A stretch of 64,000 nt of DNA from an uncultured bacterium (GTDB lineage: Bacteria > Fidelibacterota > Marinisomatia > Marinisomatales > UBA1611): NCBI GenBank assembly GCA_943788175.1, contig CALSPG010000007.1, forward strand, positions 64,001 through 128,000, given 5' to 3'. Position 1 is the first letter of the stretch. Each line of letters opens with the position of its first letter. Positions 18,001 to 33,000 of the stretch are shown here, one piece after another. Position numbers: made by a program.

Positions 18001-21000
18001 GGCAAGAAGATGGAACAACTATTTTTTCTATGCAGCGTGAAAATGGAGAGCTTTGGGACTGGTCTGGATATGATAGTATTTCTTTTAAATTTAATAATAC
18101 TATTCCTGCATCAGAGGCAAATAGAATACACCTAAGGTTGAATCTAAGTGATTACGCGGGGGTAGACAGTGTCTACACTGGTTTAGGTGAATATTATTAC
18201 TCTTTCAATTATATTCTAGATAGTGAGCCTGGTTGGAATACGGTTACCATACCATTAGTTAGAAATGACGACTGGAATGGTGGTGGTTTTAATTTAACGG
18301 GCTGGGCTGGTGACACTGATAATTCTGAACTAGACACCTACGCAATAGGTGGTTTCCATCTTGAGTTTTCTGTAGGTGGAGGTGGTGAAGGTGATGTTGT
18401 CAATGGCACTATTCTTCTTGATGATTTTAAGTTAGTTGGTTACAAAGGTGTTGATCTTGTAATCTTTAATGGAATGGCTTCTCCTCCAGAATGGGGCAAC
18501 TCATTTACTTGGGGAGGTGCACAGATATCCGTAACCGAAGGTGGTGGATATATTCCAGGGACTAATGCGCTTACGTATGTTCAGCAAGAATGCTTGGACA
18601 GGTGGTGGTTTTAACATGACTCCTCCTGTCGATCTTCGTGGTGGTGGCGAGTGGAATAGTGATTCAATTTCTTTCTGGATGCAATCAGAAGCAGATGCGC
18701 CTCAGTTAAGATTACAGTTTGAAGGCGGGACTGGTAAAGTTGGAGGAAATTTCACCCCAATAGCAGTTGGTGGTTGGAATCATTATAAGCTTGCACTAAA
18801 AGATTTTGCTTATGTAGATAACACCGCAGACTTTGATACTAGTGCTATTACTGTCTTTCAGATTCTTTCTGAAGGCAATGGTGCAGCAGGGAGAACGTTT
18901 CACTTTGATAATATGTGGACAGGGAATCCTGATATTGATGTAGTTGCTCCGGTTGCTCCTGAAAATGTAAGCGGGATACCAGGTGCTAATTTCAACTTAG
19001 TAACGTGGACAGATATTGATGGAGAAGAAGGTGAGATGTATCATGTTTTTGGTAGTACAAACCCAATTACTGAACTTAATGCTGAAGGTGTTGAATCTAT
19101 TGCAACAAATGTTATCGAAGGCGCTCAAACAGCAACTCATTATTTGGTGTCTCCCTTAGAAGATATGGACGTTACTTATTACTATGCTGTGTTATGTGTT
19201 GATGCCGCTGGTAATATTGGCGCTCCCGGAATAACGAGCTCTCCAGTTACAAATCAGGCAAAAGGAATTCCTACAATATCTCTCGATGTCCCTTCCAATT
19301 TTATTGCTGATGGAGACTTGGGAGAGTGGACAAACAGTGGAATTATGCCTTTTGTAATTAATCCAACAACTGGTGGTGTTTGGTCAAATGTTGATGATGA
19401 GTCAGACTTAAATGGAACTGTTTATTTAGCAATTGACGATGACTATTTATATTTTGCCGCAGATGTCATTGATGATGATTATCACTTTGGTGAAGGTAAT
19501 TGGTGGGATCAAGACGCTCTTCAATTGTTTCTAGGTTTATATGATTCAAGGGGTCCAAAACATTCAGCAATAAAAAGAGGTGAAGAGCCTGATTATGTAA
19601 TTTATGCGAATGAAAACACATTGCAATTAGACAATCCTGGAAATGTGAGTATAGGTAACTCTGATGAAGAACATTATCACTTTGAAATGTTCGATCCAGA
19701 TTATGTTGTAGAGGGTAAGATTTCTCTAGATACTCTTGCTGCATTATCAGGAGACCAAAGGTTTCATCCAGCTAATGGAATGAAAGTACCAATTGATATT
19801 TACTTTCATGATAATGATAATGGAACTTGGGAAGGTAATGTTGGTTACTCAACGCTTTCGAATGATCAACAGTGGAATAATCCAGGTGAGTGGTCATTTA
19901 CATGGATTGGTGATCGGTCTACAGTACTAGGAAACGATAATGAAGCACCGATTGCTCCTGAAGTATTCGCGCTTTACCCAAATTATCCTAACCCATTTAA
20001 CCCTGTTACAAATATCAACTTTTCACTTCCTGAGAACCAGAAGGTAAATCTTGGTATTTACAGTGTTACAGGTAGATTAGTTGAAAGCTTATTAAATGAA
20101 GACAGGGTCTCTGGTTTCCATTCAGTACAGTGGAATGCGGGAAGACATGCTTCAGGCGTTTATTTTTATCGATTAGATGCTGGGGCTAATTCAAAAACTC
20201 AAAAAATGATTTTATTAAAATAAATTCATTTATTTTTTAAAAAGAAAGGCAGGATTTTTCCTGCCTTTCTTTTTACTTCAAACTGCGGAACTAATTTATA
20301 TTTACACACACCTTTTTAGTAAAATTTTATGATTAGATATATTATTTATATTGCGATGACTTGCGGAATCTTTGCTCAAACCACTGGTAAAATTTCTGGC
20401 ATAATAAAAGACAAGTCTGATTCTTCGCCCTTGCCAGGAGCAAACGTATATCTTGAAAATTCTTCTTTTGGAAATGCATCAGATGGAAATGGAAGATTCA
20501 CATTAATTAATATTCCGCCAGGGAAATACAATCTCAAAATTGATATGATTGGTTACAAGTCTATAAAAATGGAAAATATTTCTGTTTCCGTTAATAGAAC
20601 CTTTTCATTAGAAGTGGATCTTGAACAGACTGTGATTGAGGGTGAGGTTGTTACAGTTGAAGTTGCTAGGTTTTCTCAAAAAAAAGATCAAACAGGGACA
20701 ATTAAAAATATTTCAGGAGATGAAATAAACGCACTTCCAGTAGAGAATGTTGGGGCAGTAGTTAATATGCAAGCAGGTGTTGTAAACGGGCATTTTAGAG
20801 GCGGTAGAAATACTGAAGTTACCTATATGGTTGATGGCATACAGGTAGATGAAACATTTGGTGGATCAAGCGCAACAGTAGATATTCAGCCTGAAGCTGT
20901 GCAAGACTTAGAGGTTGTCACGGGGACATTTAATGCTGAGTATGGTAGAGCTATGAGCGGAGTGGTGAATGTTGTGACAAGAGATGGCGGGTCTAAATTT

Positions 21001-30000: not shown

Positions 30001-33000
30001 AAAGATTAATACTGGAGGTGGCCCTGCTGCTGATTTTTTACAAGATCAGATTTGGGGCCCGGATAAAGAATATGGGCATGTTGCAGGTAATTTTCAATTC
30101 GCTAGTGATGATGTAGACATTCAAAATACTGAGAATGATGATATTTATAGATCATCATTAAACAGGGTAGCTCTCTATAAAATTAGAGTTAAACCCGGGG
30201 TCTATTCATTGGGACTATCCTTTTCCGAAAATCACTATGACAATGCGGGAGAAAGAGTTTTTGATATTTTTGTTGAAGGCAATCTCAAGGTAGATGGGCT
30301 TGATGTTCTTGATCATGTCCCAGCTTTTTCTTTATATAATATTAGTCTTGATAATATTGAAGTTCTAGACGGGGTCTTAGATATTCATCTATCTGCAGAT
30401 ATATATGGTGTGGGATATGCTGCTGCCGGAACATTTATTAATAGTATTGAGGTCATGCTTGAAAGTTCACTTTCAAATGACACAAATGTGTTGAATAAAT
30501 TTTCATTGCAAAAACCATATCCAAATCCATTTAATAATCAAATTTCGATTCCCATAATTAGCAATATTAAAAGCAAAGCACTTATAGAAATATTCGATGT
30601 AAATGGTAGAAAAGTTGAAACCATATATAATGGGATAATTTTACAAGGGAAGACTGAATTTAAATGGGATGCAAAATTTTACTCGTCTGGGACTTATTTG
30701 ATATACTTACTTATAAATGGAGAGAAATCGTATGAAAAAATCATGCTTATTAAATAACAAATTAATAAAAACAATAACTTCTATTTTTTTATTTCAGATT
30801 ATGTCATGTAGTTCTATTGATGGTGAAGTAAGCAAGTTAGTTTCATCTATGACTCTTGAAGAAAAAATTGGTCAAATGACGCAGGTTGATTATCGTTACT
30901 TAGCAGATAAGGCTGACATTGGAAAATATTTTTTGGGATCAATTTTAAGTGGTGGTGGCTCTACGCCCCCCACAAACCAGCCATCATCTTGGGTTGATTT
31001 ATATAACAGTTTCCAGGAGAGGCTCTTAAAACCAGGCTTAAGATTCCATTAATATATGGTATTGATGCAGTTCATGGTCATAATAATGTTCTAGGTGCAA
31101 CTATGTTCCCTCATAATATTGGTCTTGGTTGCGCTAATGATAAAGCATTAGTACAAGAAATCGCCGCTGCGACTGCTGCTGAGGTAAAAGCAACTGGTCT
31201 AGATTGGACGTTTGCGCCTTGTGTTGCGGTAGCCCAGGATGAAAGGTGGGGAAGAACCTATGAAAGTTTTTCTGAGGATTCTGAAATAGTAACTGAACTG
31301 GGAGTTGCCTCCACAATAGGATATCAAGGTAGAACGTTAAATAAGAATTCAGTACTTGCTTGTGCAAAACATTTTGTAGGAGATGGTAACACTGTCTTTG
31401 GAACCGGGACGAACTGGTATAAAATTGATCGTGGAGATGTTGTTTTAGATGAAGAAGAATTAAGGAGTAAATATATTAAACCATTTCAAGAGTCTATAAA
31501 AATGGGCGTAGGTAGTATTATGGTTTCATACAATAGCTGGAAAGGGAAAAAACTCCATGGCCATAAATACCTAATTAATGATGTCCTTAAAAAAGAATTA
31601 AAATTTGATGGTATAGTTGTTTCTGATTGGGCTGGGATCAATGAGCTAGATAAAGATTATAAAACATGTATCATTCAATCTATTAATGCTGGGATAGATA
31701 TGAATATGGTTCCCGGTAGCCTGAACCCTGATGATAATTCGTACGATGATTTTATAAGGTTAGCAATAGAGTCCGTTAAAGAAGGTTCTATTCCAATGGA
31801 AAGGATTGATGATGCTGTATCAAGAATATTAAAAATAAAAAAGAAACTAGGACTTTTTGATAAGCCAATTAAAGCTCCAAAAAATACGGATGTAGTTGGT
31901 TCAAAAAAGCATAGAGATTTAGCTAGAAAGAGTGTTCGGAAATCTTTAGTGCTATTAAAGAATAAAGGAGATATTCTTCCTTTAAATAAAGACAGTGGTA
32001 AAATCACATTGGTCGGTGAACACGCAGATAACATTGGATATCAATCTGGGGGCTGGACAATTCATTGGCAGGGTGGTTCCGGAGACATTACACCTGGAAC
32101 AACGATTTTAGATGCGTTTAAATCTGCTGTTGCTGACTCAAACAGTATTCATTATTCTAAATATGGTGAGAATTTATTGAATCCAGATGTGGTTGTGGTC
32201 GCTGTTGGAGAAAAGCCATACTCAGAAGGGGTCGGTGATAGAGAGTCCCTTCACCTTTCAGATGAAGATATCAAACTATTAAAAAAAGTAAAAAATTCTA
32301 ATTTACCTTATGTGGTTGTATTGATATCTGGACGACCAATGATTATTAATGAAGCCTTGGCTGAAAGTGATGCTTTCGTTGCTGCTTGGCTTCCGGGTAC
32401 TGAGGGGGAAGGAATTTCAGATGTTATTTTTGGGGATTATAATTTCACAGGTAGGCTATCTATGACATGGCCTAAATCTATGAAGCAAATACCAATTAAT
32501 TATGGTGACAGCAATTATGACCCCTTATTTCAATTTGGTTTTGGATTATCATATAAAAAATAGGTTTTGTTTTAATGCTTAAAAAAATTATTAATTCATT
32601 AATTATTTTTTCATTTTCTTTTTCTCAAAATGTACAATTAAATGAAATAGTCTCTTCAAACCAAAATACCTATTATGATGAAGATGGAGATACGCCTGAT
32701 TGGATTGAACTGTATAATTCTACATCGAATAACATATCACTTAATAATTGGGGTTTATCAGATGATATTGAAGACCCATTTAAGTGGCGTATTCCAAACG
32801 TGATATTAGCACCAGAAGATTTTTTAATGATTCTGGCATCTGATAAAGATCGTGTTGATATGATATCAGAGTGGGAGACTATTATAGATATAGGAGATTC
32901 GTGGTATTACTTTGTAGCTAGCCAAGAGCCAGTCTCAAATTGGAATCAGTTAAGTTTCAATTCTAGTAGTTGGAGTATTGGTCCGAGCGGTTTTGGATAT

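What a model noticed while it worked through the whole genome (the two positions that open the first line are those of the whole stretch)
20329..30757. Conserved triad: SusC-like TonB receptor, giant unknown protein with PorZ-like tail, PorV/PorQ-family barrel
The genome carries three intact copies of a three-gene unit: TBDR, protein X (1,100-1,300 aa, no known family, divergent T9SS C-terminal domain) and protein Y (PorV/PorQ family). They lie at C7:84329-91478, C5:36776-44779 and C5:487517-494580, with degraded or duplicated copies at C5:524848-536792. The gene order is conserved across Marinimicrobia and other FCB lineages, and no SusD was found. I propose, as inference, that X is a T9SS-exported surface partner of the receptor, held by its own PorQ-like barrel.
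Evidence so far: - Pfam: the TBDRs have CarboxypepD_reg + Plug + barrel. X and Y have no family. - NCBIfam: Y scores 90.7-192 bits on NF033709 (cut-off 90). X gives only PorZ C-terminus and TIGR04183 matches below the cut-offs. - All 5 proteins with a strong X-type end are followed by a Y gene. - Relatives: Y-like genes in 30 of 31 genomes. An X-type C-terminus lies directly upstream of Y in 24 of 24 loci. TBDR, X, Y are colinear in 12 of 12 regions. - Public genomes (61 of 80 loci examined): Y downstream in 51 of 55, TBDR upstream in 51 of 53, including Calditrichia, KSB1, Ignavibacteria, Rhodothermales and Bacteroidota. - No SusD families in this genome. - X has 2,619 homologues, the few named ones called [...]
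(Added by a program. Inside this text positions count along the whole contig: contig position 64,001 is position 1 of the stretch shown here. "Call 12" and the like, gene names such as g00115 and contig names such as C1 are that model's own, and its searches are not shown. The text may have been shortened before it was handed on; [...] marks where a part breaks off. The agent that wrote the report below was given it as the finding of a first reader that could run no searches.)

Follow-up and report, generated by a model that had tools for sequence, protein, structure and literature searches.

The report
SusD-free glycan uptake triad
A marine SAR406-type bacterium, and many relatives that mostly lack the usual SusD helper, pair each sugar-importing outer-membrane receptor with a huge uncharacterised surface protein and a small barrel predicted to hold that protein, which looks like an undescribed way of capturing polysaccharides.

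Summary
Window 20329-27478 encodes a TonB-dependent receptor (T, 884 aa), an unannotated 1,150-aa protein (X) and a PorV/PorQ-family barrel (Y, 348 aa), with overlapping stop and start codons. It lies in a beta-glucan locus (LacI-type regulator, GH30, GH1, GH16 twice, GH3, CBM9). The genome holds two more intact triads and a rearranged region.

In 79 public loci, Y follows X in 59 of 64 testable cases and T precedes X in 64 of 68. The three proteins co-diverge.

New results:
- An AlphaFold model of X (pLDDT 90.8) shows an N-terminal supersandwich of the kind found in GH15, GH94 and GH65 enzymes, with Asp-rich loops. It is followed by an Fn3-like domain, a variable beta region with no clear match, and a tail closest to the PorZ and PorU tails.
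- A controlled complex prediction docks that tail on Y (0.90 against 0.00 for controls).
- 48 of 150 neighbouring genes examined carry GH or CBM domains, and the clades of X track glycan class.
- Contigs from marine RNA libraries bridge the gene junctions.

Best reading (0.55): X is a T9SS-delivered glycan collector, held on the surface by Y, that feeds T. Secretion, glycan binding and T-X contact remain inferred.

The receptor is not a SusC/RagA member. I rate it a new variant of known kinds.

The parts
20329..22983 (+). T: TonB-dependent receptor, 884 aa, with an N-terminal carboxypeptidase-regulatory-like extension, a plug and a barrel
   Evidence: Pfam PF13715, PF13620, PF07715 and PF00593. 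No SusC/RagA match. The profile against PDB hits CirA and PhuR best; SusC homologues match only on the extension and plug.
22983..26435 (+). X: 1,150-aa protein of no named family. Signal peptide 1-21; supersandwich about 33-580, with Asp-rich loops about 341-475; Fn3-like 581-747; variable beta region 748-1036; PorZ/PorU-like tail 1037-1150.
   Evidence: No Pfam family, TIGR04183 21.9/23. AF2 model pLDDT 90.8. Fold matches. Conservation by region. Tail matches to PorZ and PorU.
26432..27478 (+). Y: PorV/PorQ-family outer-membrane barrel, 348 aa, predicted to hold the tail of X
   Evidence: NF033709 192 bits; PorQ 91.8/220 and PorV 82.9/250. PDB PorV 6h3i E 3.2e-10. Complex prediction 0.90 against 0.00.
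27485..28957 (+). Lipoprotein-like 490-aa protein whose look-alikes are 'PpiC domain-containing' (parvulin/SurA-like). Possible chaperone for the module.
   Evidence: No Pfam or NCBIfam family. ESM Atlas clusters. Rotamase-domain neighbours beside 3 other triads. The lipobox is read from the sequence.
28967..30757 (+). GH16 + malectin + T9SS tail: secreted beta-glucanase of the locus
   Evidence: Pfam PF00722, PF11721, PF18962. The same gene sits beside related triads.
16416..20223 (+). Two overlapping ORFs (16416-18614 and 18541-20223) with CBM9 and a T9SS tail. Probably one gene broken by a 1-nt difference at 18589.
   Evidence: Pfam CBM9_1 and Por_Secre_tail. RNA-library contigs of X1, X3 and X5 lack one base at 18589. 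CBM9+tail proteins of 833-1157 aa precede T in related loci.
30717..32563 (+). GH3 beta-glucosidase in two pieces (30717-31052, 31103-32563)
   Evidence: Pfam GH3 N and C domains on the second piece. 1-nt insertions at 31014-31016 in RNA-library contigs of X1, X2 and X3.
10750..16182 (-). Divergent arm of the locus: GH30, GH1, PA14+GH16 and a LacI-type regulator
   Evidence: Pfam PF02055, PF00232, PF07691+PF00722, PF13377/PF00532.

Best explanation
T, X and Y form the outer-membrane core of SusD-independent polysaccharide-utilisation loci in Marinimicrobia (Fidelibacterota) and in records labelled Calditrichia, KSB1, Ignavibacteria, Rhodothermales and others.

Proposed course of events:
1. The three genes are made together; their stop and start codons overlap.
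2. T and Y insert into the outer membrane.
3. [quoted passage not shown]
4. That tail is not cut off and linked to lipopolysaccharide. It stays bound to its own PorV/PorQ-family barrel Y, as the PorZ tail stays on PorQ and the PorU tail on PorV.
5. Held in this way beside T, X captures glycan with its N-terminal carbohydrate-type supersandwich and its variable beta domains. Here the glycan would be beta-glucan fragments made by the secreted GH16 enzymes.
6. X passes the glycan to T for TonB-driven import. Breakdown follows, by enzymes assumed to be periplasmic or cytoplasmic (GH3, GH30, GH1).

Shown: gene content, order, conservation, co-divergence, predicted folds, a controlled X-tail/Y complex prediction, glycan-enzyme context, and presence in RNA libraries.

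Inferred: secretion, tail retention, glycan binding, T-X contact, and where GH3, GH30 and GH1 act.
For: 1. Conserved unit. Y follows X in 59 of 64 loci, T precedes X in 64 of 68, and both hold in 52 of 57. Median gaps are 15 and 13 nt. In the window the overlaps are 1 and 4 nt.
2. Co-divergence across 51 complete triads. Distance correlations are 0.93 (T-X), 0.86 (X-Y) and 0.89 (T-Y). Shared tree splits are 31, 28 and 30 of 48, against at most 2 in label shuffles.
3. Distinct receptor clade. Receptors beside X in other phyla score 450-990 bits on an HMM built from this genome's four triad receptors. This genome's other receptors score 143 or less.
4. Structure of X. The model has pLDDT 90.8 and pTM 0.83. 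Residues about 33-580 match the supersandwich of dextran dextrinase 9ju0 (Z 20.4, rmsd 3.0, 256 residues), glucoamylase 1lf6 (18.0), laminaribiose phosphorylase 6ggy (18.2) and the GH149 enzyme 6hq6 (15.5).
5. Tail of X. The only PDB sequence hits are the PorZ and PorU tails. The review PMC10202324 (passages read) says both tails are retained and bind PorQ and PorV.
6. X tail with Y. ipSAE is 0.90 in three runs, and the best of three controls is 0.00. The runs share at least 78% of contacts, and the partner's pLDDT is at least 77. The tool's mark was reached by 116 of 157 solved complexes and 2 of 215 mismatched pairs.
7. Context. 33 of 85 and 15 of 65 flanking ORFs carry GH or CBM domains, alongside 4 LacI regulators and 8 SSF symporters. 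The clades of X go with GH16/GH3/CBM9, alpha-amylase/CBM20, GH10/GH43, or GH94.
8. T9SS parts present. PorU scores 584 bits, and at least 50 ORFs carry type-A tails. A SprA piece and PorV-like barrels are also found.
9. RNA libraries. Contigs from four marine runs of two studies bridge T/X, X/Y or Y/next gene.
Against: - The tail of X falls just below the curated T9SS cut-off (21.9 against 23).
- GldM and GldK models found nothing convincing in this genome. The controls for these searches were uninformative, so the motor and ring of the T9SS are unverified here.
- PorV-substrate structures are solved (8gl6 and others, listed), so the pass may come from likeness. It also does not show that Y is preferred over the general PorV.
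- Nothing tests T-X contact. By recall, TonB-dependent sugar receptors of Proteobacteria work without a partner.
- The supersandwich fold also occurs in proteins that are not carbohydrate binders, such as YidC 3blc (Z 12.8). The variable region 748-1036 matches no CBM; its best match is FlgK at Z 8.8 over 86 of 289 residues.
- Not all triads sit by glycan enzymes. 8 of 27 and 27 of 39 loci had no GH or CBM among the neighbours examined. The C5:36776 copy lies by asparaginase, nitroreductase and an arylsulfotransferase-like gene.
- SusD_RagB matches occur in 12 of 61 genomes of the phylum.
- Variant orders exist: X-X-X-Y without T (L036), X without T (L046), and rearranged L069 and L088.
- Co-divergence is expected of any linked genes.
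- Runs X1 and X2 show flat depth, so DNA carry-over is possible.
Confidence: 0.55

Rival explanations
1. X is a surface enzyme of a new family (a glycanase, lyase or epimerase-like protein) rather than a binding partner. It is anchored by Y and cuts the glycan that T then imports.
For: The same fold is catalytic in aldose 1-epimerases (Z about 12-14). Many invariant Asp, Glu, Arg, Asn and Trp residues lie in the N-terminal domain. The loci are rich in enzymes carrying T9SS tails.
Against: The model has no (alpha/alpha)6 or TIM catalytic domain. In the best-matching enzymes the supersandwich is, by recall, the accessory domain. X is present once per receptor whatever the enzyme set, and the loci already hold endo-acting enzymes.
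Confidence: 0.12
2. X-Y is a self-contained T9SS surface module, such as an adhesin for particles or algal surfaces, or a cell-coat protein. It is merely co-regulated with the receptor and does not touch it.
For: X-Y occurs without T in L036 and L046. The X-type tail with Y also carries another passenger: an M36-like part at C5:532996-535776. Other pairs of a large tail-bearing protein and a PorV-like barrel exist in the genome.
Against: T lies directly upstream in 64 of 68 loci, with a median gap of 15 nt. The receptors beside X form a clade of their own and co-diverge with X.
Confidence: 0.15
3. Y is a dedicated carrier that takes X from the T9SS translocon, as PorP/SprF-like barrels do for type-B cargo. 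X is then released or attached elsewhere, and Y is not its lasting anchor.
For: PorV is described as a shuttle (PMC10202324). The complex prediction cannot tell a passing contact from a lasting one.
Against: The closest solved tails are the two that are retained, PorZ and PorU. One Y gene per X gene is costly for a mere carrier.
Confidence: 0.1
4. The triad is a general nutrient-uptake module with no particular tie to glycans. The substrate might be peptides, peptidoglycan fragments or something else, and it differs from copy to copy.
For: The C5:487517 copy lies by an amidase_2 with a T9SS tail and by NamZ. The C5:36776 copy lies by no glycan enzyme. Many neighbours carry only a T9SS tail (15 of 65).
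Against: 48 of 150 neighbours carry GH or CBM domains, and sugar-type regulators and transporters recur. The N-terminal fold is of the glycoside-hydrolase type. Peptidoglycan is itself a glycan.
Confidence: 0.08

Closest known systems
SusC/SusD core of Bacteroidota polysaccharide utilisation loci
   Same: A TonB-dependent receptor with a carboxypeptidase-regulatory-like N-terminal extension is followed directly by the gene of a presumed surface partner. Both lie inside a locus of glycan enzymes and a regulator.
   Different: The receptor does not reach the SusC/RagA model. The partner is a 1,150-aa, almost all-beta protein, not, by recall, a ~550-aa helical lipoprotein. It has no lipobox after its signal peptide. 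A third gene, a PorV/PorQ-family barrel, always follows. No SusD family was found in this genome.
PorZ-PorQ and PorU-PorV pairs of the T9SS attachment complex
   Same: X carries a tail whose only solved sequence relatives are the PorZ and PorU tails. The next gene is a PorV/PorQ-family barrel. A controlled prediction docks the tail on the barrel. The review PMC10202324 reports that these tails are retained and bound to PorQ and PorV.
   Different: The body of X is unrelated to PorZ's propellers or PorU's peptidase: the matches cover the tail only. Y stays below the PorQ and PorV equivalog cut-offs. The genome has a separate PorU, a PorV-like barrel and a PorZ-like/PorQ-like pair. There are several X-Y pairs per genome, each tied to a receptor.
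Type-B CTD proteins with their PorP/SprF-like barrels
   Same: It follows the same principle: a cargo gene next to the gene of its own barrel, which serves transport and surface anchoring (PMC9143113, abstract seen; PMC10202324, passages read).
   Different: The tail is nearer type A (TIGR04183 and PorZ/PorU matches). The barrel belongs to the PorV/PorQ family, and no PorP/SprF family is among Y's matches.
SusE/SusF-type surface glycan-binding proteins
   Same: These are multi-domain beta-rich surface proteins encoded beside the transporter. Their most variable domains plausibly give specificity (one search shows residues 748-1036 to be the least conserved part of X).
   Different: Those are lipoproteins with CBM-like domains (recalled). 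X has no lipid anchor signal, a supersandwich N-terminal domain, and a variable region with no clear CBM match.
BamG-BamH of the Bacteroidota BAM complex
   Same: A FadL/PorV-like 14-stranded barrel binds a surface protein through its extracellular loops (PMC12578637, passage read).
   Different: It belongs to a different machine and different families, with no T9SS tail and no receptor.

Membership tests
TonB-dependent receptor | Plug domain and 22-strand barrel domain above the Pfam cut-offs | tested here: met
   PF07715 38.0 against 23.9; PF00593 101.8 against 27.
SusC/RagA (TIGR04056) | Score above the curated cut-off of 368 bits | tested here: not met
   The window's T has no match at E<=0.01. 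Paralogues score 71.7 and 41.7 bits, on the N-terminal ~170 residues only.
SusC/RagA (TIGR04056) | Carboxypeptidase-regulatory-like N-terminal extension | tested here: met
   PF13715 64.1 bits and PF13620 54.5 bits on residues 22-110. Solved SusC homologues match the profile on this part and the plug only.
SusC/SusD pair | A susD-family gene next to the receptor | tested here: not met
   The next gene is X, which has no family. PF07980, PF14322 and PF12771 give no match in the 92%-complete genome.
PorV/PorQ family (NF033709) | Score above the cut-off of 90 bits | tested here: met
   Y scores 192 bits over profile positions 1-326. Paralogues score 90.7-180.3 bits.
PorQ (NF033711) and PorV (NF033710) equivalogs | Score above 220 and 250 bits respectively | tested here: not met
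   Y scores 91.8 and 82.9 bits, on the N-terminal ~200 residues.
T9SS type-A sorting domain (TIGR04183 / PF18962) | Score above the curated cut-off | tested here: not met
   X scores 21.9 against 23 and has no Pfam match. The C5:39816 paralogue scores 22.9 against 23.
T9SS C-terminal domain (fold) | C-terminal beta-sandwich like solved T9SS tails | tested here: met
   PorZ 5m11_A: Z 12.9, rmsd 2.0, 94 residues, 24% identity. Sequence hits to the PorZ and PorU tails at E 0.006. This rests on a predicted model.
PorZ (NF052228) | Full-length match above 260 bits | tested here: not met
   The window's X has no match. Paralogues score 28-30 bits on the last ~100 residues only.
PorU sortase (NF033707) | Full-length match above 420 bits | tested here: not met
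   X gives no match. The genome's PorU lies elsewhere: C6:20813-24025, 583.6 bits.
Galactose-mutarotase-like supersandwich (glycoside-hydrolase-type carbohydrate-binding fold) | Fold match covering the domain and standing well above background | tested here: met
   9ju0 Z 20.4 (256 residues), 6ggy 18.2, 1lf6 18.0, 1ulv 17.9, 2cqs 17.9. This is a predicted model, and a shared fold does not show sugar binding.
Surface lipoprotein partners (SusD, SusE/F, BtuG type) | Lipobox cysteine after the signal peptide | tested here: not met
   The N-terminus of X reads ...SLIFAQGRPY, with no cysteine.
Complete T9SS in this genome | Motor and ring genes (GldK/L/M/N) | tested here: inconclusive
   TIGR03517 and PF12081 gave no match. 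TIGR03525 gave 42.9 bits against 350. The control genomes do not ring above cut-off for these models. PorU, a SprA piece, PorV-like barrels and at least 50 type-A tails are present.

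The most novel reading that the evidence does not exclude
T-X-Y is a three-protein 'utilisome' of a kind not yet described. 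A TonB-dependent glycan importer has a substrate collector that is not a lipoprotein. The collector is a T9SS-delivered, probably calcium-stabilised giant, docked by its uncut tail on a private PorQ-like barrel. The module duplicated and specialised by glycan class (beta-glucan, alpha-glucan, xylan, beta-1,2-glucan or cellobiose). It is spread across the non-Bacteroidia FCB lineages, and it is the main route of polysaccharide capture in the abundant ocean clade SAR406, where SusD is rare or absent.
Probability: 0.4. Interest if true: 0.85.

Novelty: new variant of a known kind. Interest (0 to 1): 0.78.

Why it matters
Glycan uptake through TonB-dependent receptors is understood mainly from SusC/SusD of Bacteroidota. 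How the other FCB phyla feed their receptors is not described in the papers I could search. These phyla include SAR406/Marinimicrobia, one of the most abundant deep-ocean clades (recalled). A 2026 review of glycoside transporters mentions none of these lineages, nor the T9SS (term counts).

X is a very large family. It has 3,463 representative clusters at E<=0.001, and it occurs in 149 of 151 sampled genomes of the phylum. Every named member I saw is called 'hypothetical protein'.

If the model holds, it would:
- link two systems studied apart, T9SS anchoring by cognate barrels and receptor-mediated glycan capture;
- give a marker for predicting polysaccharide loci outside Bacteroidia, where SusC/D-based predictors fail;
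- offer substrate-specific clades for reading carbon use from ocean metagenomes and metatranscriptomes.

Tried and rejected
- X as PorU or PorZ: rejected. Only the tail matches, and the genome has its own PorU and a PorZ-like/PorQ-like pair.
- Whole-model Foldseek against PDB gave only low-TM Fn3-type matches, with PorZ on top at TMq 0.09.
- Region 748-1036 folded alone (pLDDT 95.9) found no clear fold. The best matches were FlgK at Z 8.8 and one Foldseek hit at E 5e-4 with TMq 0.21.
- The promoter scan was no better than shuffles (70 against 73.2), and no convincing terminator lies inside the triad.
- The search for related loci with the 65-row alignment failed for lack of a conserved stretch. 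The 14-row alignment worked.
- Single-sequence PDB search with T found nothing.
- The Rhodothermus marinus xylan locus (Rmar_1070 TonB receptor, 1071 hypothetical with Por tail, 1072 hypothetical; table in PMC6987092) looks like a triad. I could not confirm this by sequence. No R. marinus record was among the best 120 relatives of a Rhodothermaceae X, and no other paper holds these locus tags.
- The GldM and GldK searches were inconclusive.
- Earlier findings of this scan were not open.
- A prediction of T with X or with Y was not possible within the 1,000-residue limit.
- Supplements of the papers were not consulted.
- Papers in subscription journals were not searchable.

Full report
**What is there**

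The window is G000:C7:64001-128000 of a 2.27-Mb genome in 12 contigs, 92% complete. Its close protein relatives are labelled Marinimicrobia or Neomarinimicrobiota.

Three ORFs on the + strand abut:
- T, 20329-22983, 884 aa.
- X, 22983-26435, 1,150 aa, sharing one base with T.
- Y, 26432-27478, 348 aa, overlapping X by four bases.

A fourth ORF starts six bases after Y (27485-28957).

T has a carboxypeptidase-regulatory-like N-terminal domain, a plug and a TonB-dependent barrel. X has no Pfam family, and its only NCBIfam match is TIGR04183 at 21.9 bits against a cut-off of 23. Y scores 192 bits on the PorV/PorQ family model NF033709 (cut-off 90). It stays below the PorQ (91.8/220) and PorV (82.9/250) equivalogs, and it passes Pfam's cut-off for UPF0164 (24.0/21.4).

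The finding's end coordinate, 30757, also covers the fourth ORF and a GH16-malectin gene with a T9SS tail.

**The surrounding locus**

The triad sits in a beta-glucan-type locus:
- On the opposite strand: GH30 (10750-12099), GH1 (12107-13465), PA14+GH16 (13879-15150) and a LacI-type regulator (15172-16182).
- Upstream of T: two overlapping ORFs with CBM9 and a T9SS tail.
- Downstream: GH16-malectin-tail, a GH3 in two pieces, and a CotH/LTD protein with a T9SS tail.

**Copies in the genome**

T-X-Y lies at C5:36776-44779 and C5:487517-494580, and there is a rearranged region at C5:524848-536792. That region holds a 1,125-aa receptor, two shorter proteins with the X-type tail (one with an M36-like front part) and two Y genes, one of them split.

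An HMM of the X tail separates five ORFs (79.6-140.6 bits) from all other T9SS tails of the genome (36.8 bits or less). Three of the five were in the training set. Each of the five is followed by a Y gene.

The genome also has its own PorU (583.6 bits) and at least 50 ORFs with type-A tails. It has a PorV-like barrel (C9, 183 bits on PorV), a SprA piece, and next to that piece a PorZ-like 701-aa protein followed by a PorQ-like barrel. So X and Y are additions to the general T9SS parts, not those parts themselves.

Models for GldM and GldK found nothing convincing, and their controls were uninformative. The motor and ring of the system are therefore unverified here.

**Conservation**

A scan of one genome per species gave 79 loci. 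By my tally of the record titles, their labels are:
- Neomarinimicrobiota/Marinimicrobia 11
- Calditrichia-type 14
- KSB1 5
- Ignavibacteria-type 17
- Rhodothermales-type 3
- unspecified Bacteroidota 5
- Cytophagia/Chitinophagales 3
- Eisenbacteria 2
- Kryptoniota, Chlorobiaceae and Lentisphaeria 1 each
- unclassified 16

With HMMs built from this genome's own T and Y proteins, Y lies directly downstream of X in 59 of 64 testable loci. T lies directly upstream in 64 of 68, and both hold in 52 of 57.

The misfits are:
- an extra tail-bearing gene between X and Y (L033);
- three tandem X genes before one Y (L036);
- split X genes (L048, L094);
- rearranged orders (L069, L088);
- an X without T (L046);
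- a truncated X (L101).

Median gaps are 15 nt (T-X) and 13 nt (X-Y).

In the phylum, a profile of X finds a match at E<=1e-10 in 149 of 151 sampled genomes. By my count of the table, 127 of these have a best E of 1e-84 or lower. The two misses and many of the weak cases are genomes of about 1 Mb. SusD_RagB is found in 12 of 61 genomes and in none of three SusD models in this genome.

X has 3,463 representative relatives at E<=0.001, of which 419 are at E<=1e-30. All named relatives that I saw are 'hypothetical protein'. The nearest ESM Atlas clusters have no common Pfam family.

**Co-divergence**

Across 51 complete triads, pairwise distances of T, X and Y correlate: Pearson 0.93, 0.86 and 0.89. 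The trees share 31, 28 and 30 of 48 splits, against at most 2 when the labels are shuffled.

The genome's three triads fall in three deep clades. The window's copy is about 61% identical in X to Calditrichia copies, but only 31% and 23% identical to its own paralogues. The clades mix phyla.

Receptors next to X in other phyla score 450-990 bits on the HMM of this genome's triad receptors. The genome's other receptors score 143 or less. Linkage alone could produce co-divergence, so this shows a unit that is inherited and diversifies together, not physical contact.

**What X looks like**

AlphaFold2 with 65 sequences gives pLDDT 90.8 and pTM 0.83.

- *N-terminal domain.* An alignment to about 48,000 PDB representatives shows that residues about 33-580 form a supersandwich. 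It resembles the N-terminal domains of these enzymes:
  - dextran dextrinase 9ju0 (Z 20.4, rmsd 3.0, 256 residues);
  - bacterial glucoamylase 1lf6 (Z 18.0);
  - glucodextranase 1ulv (Z 17.9);
  - laminaribiose and cellobiose phosphorylases 6ggy and 2cqs (Z 18.2, 17.9);
  - GH149 6hq6 (Z 15.5);
  - aldose epimerases (Z 12-14).
- *Asp-rich loops.* Inserted in this domain are Asp-rich motifs (DNDxDGxxDE and the like) that are invariant in the family. Reading them as calcium sites rests on recall.
- *Fn3-like domain.* Residues 581-747.
- *Variable region.* Residues 748-1036 are beta-rich. Folded alone (pLDDT 95.9), the region has no clear match.
- *Tail.* Residues 1037-1150.

Conservation is highest in the tail (0.57) and the Fn3-like domain (0.55), and lowest in 748-1036 (0.29-0.33). 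That pattern fits a constant docking part and a variable, substrate-facing part.

X has a signal peptide without a lipobox cysteine.

**The tail and Y**

A profile of X hits only three PDB sequences at E<=1. They are the tails of PorZ (5m11) and PorU (6za2), and a weak Fn3 match. In the structure comparison the tail aligns to PorZ at Z 12.9, rmsd 2.0, 94 residues and 24% identity.

According to the passages I read in the review PMC10202324, these are the two T9SS proteins whose tails are not removed: PorU's stays on PorV and PorZ's on PorQ. The authors suggest that cognate PorV-like barrels protect such tails, and say the same may hold for type-B cargo with PorP/SprF-like barrels.

A complex prediction of Y with X 1035-1150, both given as alignments, scored 0.89, 0.90 and 0.90. 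The best of three controls scored 0.00. At least 78% of contacts were shared between runs, and the partner's pLDDT was at least 77. The tool's mark was reached by 116 of 157 solved complexes and 2 of 215 mismatched pairs.

PorV-substrate complexes are solved (entries listed), so this pass may show likeness rather than binding by this copy. It also says nothing about preference for Y over the general PorV.

**Context across loci**

Of 85 ORFs within two genes of the triad in 27 loci, 33 carry GH or CBM domains. These include GH3, GH16, GH30, GH2, GH92, GH95, GH27, GH5, GH94, PF10091, CBM9, CBM4_9 and malectin. Seven are SSF symporters, four are LacI regulators and one is a ROK protein. 19 of the 27 loci have at least one GH or CBM neighbour.

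Of 65 immediate neighbours in 39 further loci, 15 carry GH or CBM domains: CBM9, GH16, GH3, CBM20, CBM48, GH43+CBM6, GH10, GH94, alpha-amylase and a ConA-like domain. Fifteen show only a T9SS tail, and three are PpiC-type rotamases. 12 of the 39 loci have a GH or CBM neighbour.

Set against the X tree, the clades go with glycan classes:
- the window's clade with GH16, GH3 and CBM9;
- L102, L105 and L107 with alpha-amylase;
- L091, L092 and L081 with CBM48 and CBM20;
- L086 with GH43 and GH10;
- L056, L057, L058 and L096 with GH94 and PF10091.

No formal background rate was computed.

**Expression**

Near-identical sequence is held by marine runs on record as RNA. Contigs of four runs from two studies cover the region at 95% identity or more.
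- One contig of X1 spans 18593-25204 (CBM9 gene, T, and into X). Another spans 25272-27716 (X, Y, and the next gene).
- X2, X3 and X5 each bridge T/X. X2 and X3 also bridge Y and the next gene.

Depth is flat in X1 and X2, so DNA carry-over cannot be excluded. It is uneven in X3 and X5, ranging from 0 to 101. Contigs show no single transcript.

**Reading**

The best-supported model is a SusD-independent glycan-capture module. X is exported by the T9SS, kept on the surface by its uncut tail docked on Y, and acts with T as collector or lid. I give the whole model 0.55.

My own estimates for its parts:
- a real, conserved unit: about 0.98;
- a tie to glycan use: about 0.85;
- docking of the X tail on Y: about 0.7;
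- direct work with T: about 0.5.

The rivals are a surface enzyme, an independent adhesin-type module, Y as carrier only, and a module not specific to glycans.

**Comparison and novelty**

The module works like SusC/D plus surface glycan-binding proteins, and like PorZ-PorQ, but it belongs to none of them:
- T is not a SusC/RagA member.
- X is not SusD, PorZ or PorU.
- Y is a PorV/PorQ-family member below both equivalog cut-offs.

I found no description of the triad in ten full-text searches. A 2026 review of glycoside transporters has no mention of Marinimicrobia, Ignavibacteria or the T9SS (term counts).

A table in PMC6987092 lists Rmar_1070 (TonB-dependent receptor), 1071 (hypothetical, with a Por tail) and 1072 (hypothetical) inside the Rhodothermus marinus xylan locus. 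This may be a triad in a cultured organism, but I could not check it by sequence.

I rate the finding a new variant of known kinds, with high interest because of the family's size, its ecological reach and its direct testability.

Noticed in passing
window 16416-20223: ORFs 16416-18614 and 18541-20223 overlap in different frames. RNA-library contigs of X1, X3 and X5 lack one base at 18589, which would join them into one large CBM9 protein with a T9SS tail. Related loci have single CBM9+tail genes of 833-1157 aa before T.
   Followed up: partly
window 16416-18614: The protein holds three near-identical repeats of about 140-150 aa (IIFSGTFGGSQVDTTTMTYTNPTGSESWAGFANED...). One RNA-library contig of X5 skips 16717 to 18054 with 580 other letters between, which suggests that repeat number or content varies between strains.
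   Followed up: no
window 30717-32563: The GH3 gene is in two pieces (30717-31052, 31103-32563). RNA-library contigs of X1, X2 and X3 carry a 1-nt insertion at 31014-31016, so the break may be an assembly error or a strain difference.
   Followed up: partly
window 22988: A 6-nt deletion in the leucine run of X's signal peptide appears in contigs of X2, X3 and X5.
   Followed up: no
window 27485-28957: The 490-aa ORF after Y has a lipobox-like start (LLLTNC) and no Pfam or NCBIfam family. Its ESM Atlas look-alikes are 'PpiC domain-containing protein' clusters. No-family ORFs of 489-516 aa hold the same place in L039, L044 and L045, and rotamase-domain genes flank three other triads (L073, L091, L092). 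It may be a chaperone of the module.
   Followed up: partly
L025:2881-9932 (G000:C5:198881-205932, minus strand): A 1,437-aa protein with a sub-threshold T9SS tail (TIGR04183 20.9/23) is followed by a 913-aa protein whose N-terminal part is a PorV/PorQ-family barrel (83.9/90 bits) fused to TPR repeats. This is another pair of a large tail-bearing protein and a PorV-like barrel.
   Followed up: partly
L022:13395-17792 (G000:C5:532395-536792): A 926-aa protein joins an M36-metallopeptidase-like front part (NF038112, 48 bits on profile positions 1361-1565) to an X-type tail and is followed by a Y gene. A 202-aa M36-like fragment lies just before it. The tail/Y module thus also carries another passenger.
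   Followed up: partly
L024:104-8009 (G000:C7:332104-340009): A SprA piece is followed, after two other genes, by a 701-aa protein with a weak PorZ/PorU-type tail. After that come a PorV/PorQ-family barrel (111 bits) and a second weaker one (36 bits). This is a likely PorZ-PorQ pair encoded side by side.
   Followed up: partly
window 20329, 22983, 26432 (N-termini of T, X, Y): All three have Ala-Gln at the likely signal-peptidase site (IFAQTTGK, IFAQGRPY, IDAQMIHR), and Gln21 of X is invariant in the 14-row alignment. The abstract of PMC5837995 says N-terminal glutamine after cleavage is a Bacteroidetes feature not shared by the whole FCB group.
   Followed up: no
L030-L034, L044, L050, L055 against the window: The window's X is 57-71% identical to copies in records labelled Calditrichia, 'Cytophagia' or unclassified, but only 31% and 23% identical to its own paralogues. 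The neighbours (CBM9+tail, GH16-malectin, GH3, SSF) are shared too, so the whole beta-glucan locus seems shared across phyla, by old paralogy or by transfer.
   Followed up: partly
L021:967-7443 (G000:C5:480967-487443): Directly upstream of the C5:487517 triad lies another receptor (814 aa, with the same N-terminal extension). It is followed by a 1,248-aa FG-GAP protein with an ordinary T9SS tail and no Y gene.
   Followed up: no
window 32575-36108: A 1,177-aa protein has CotH, two lamin-tail domains, a chitobiase/Fn3-associated domain and a T9SS tail at the end of the locus. A CotH fragment sits at the same side of the triad in L032.
   Followed up: no
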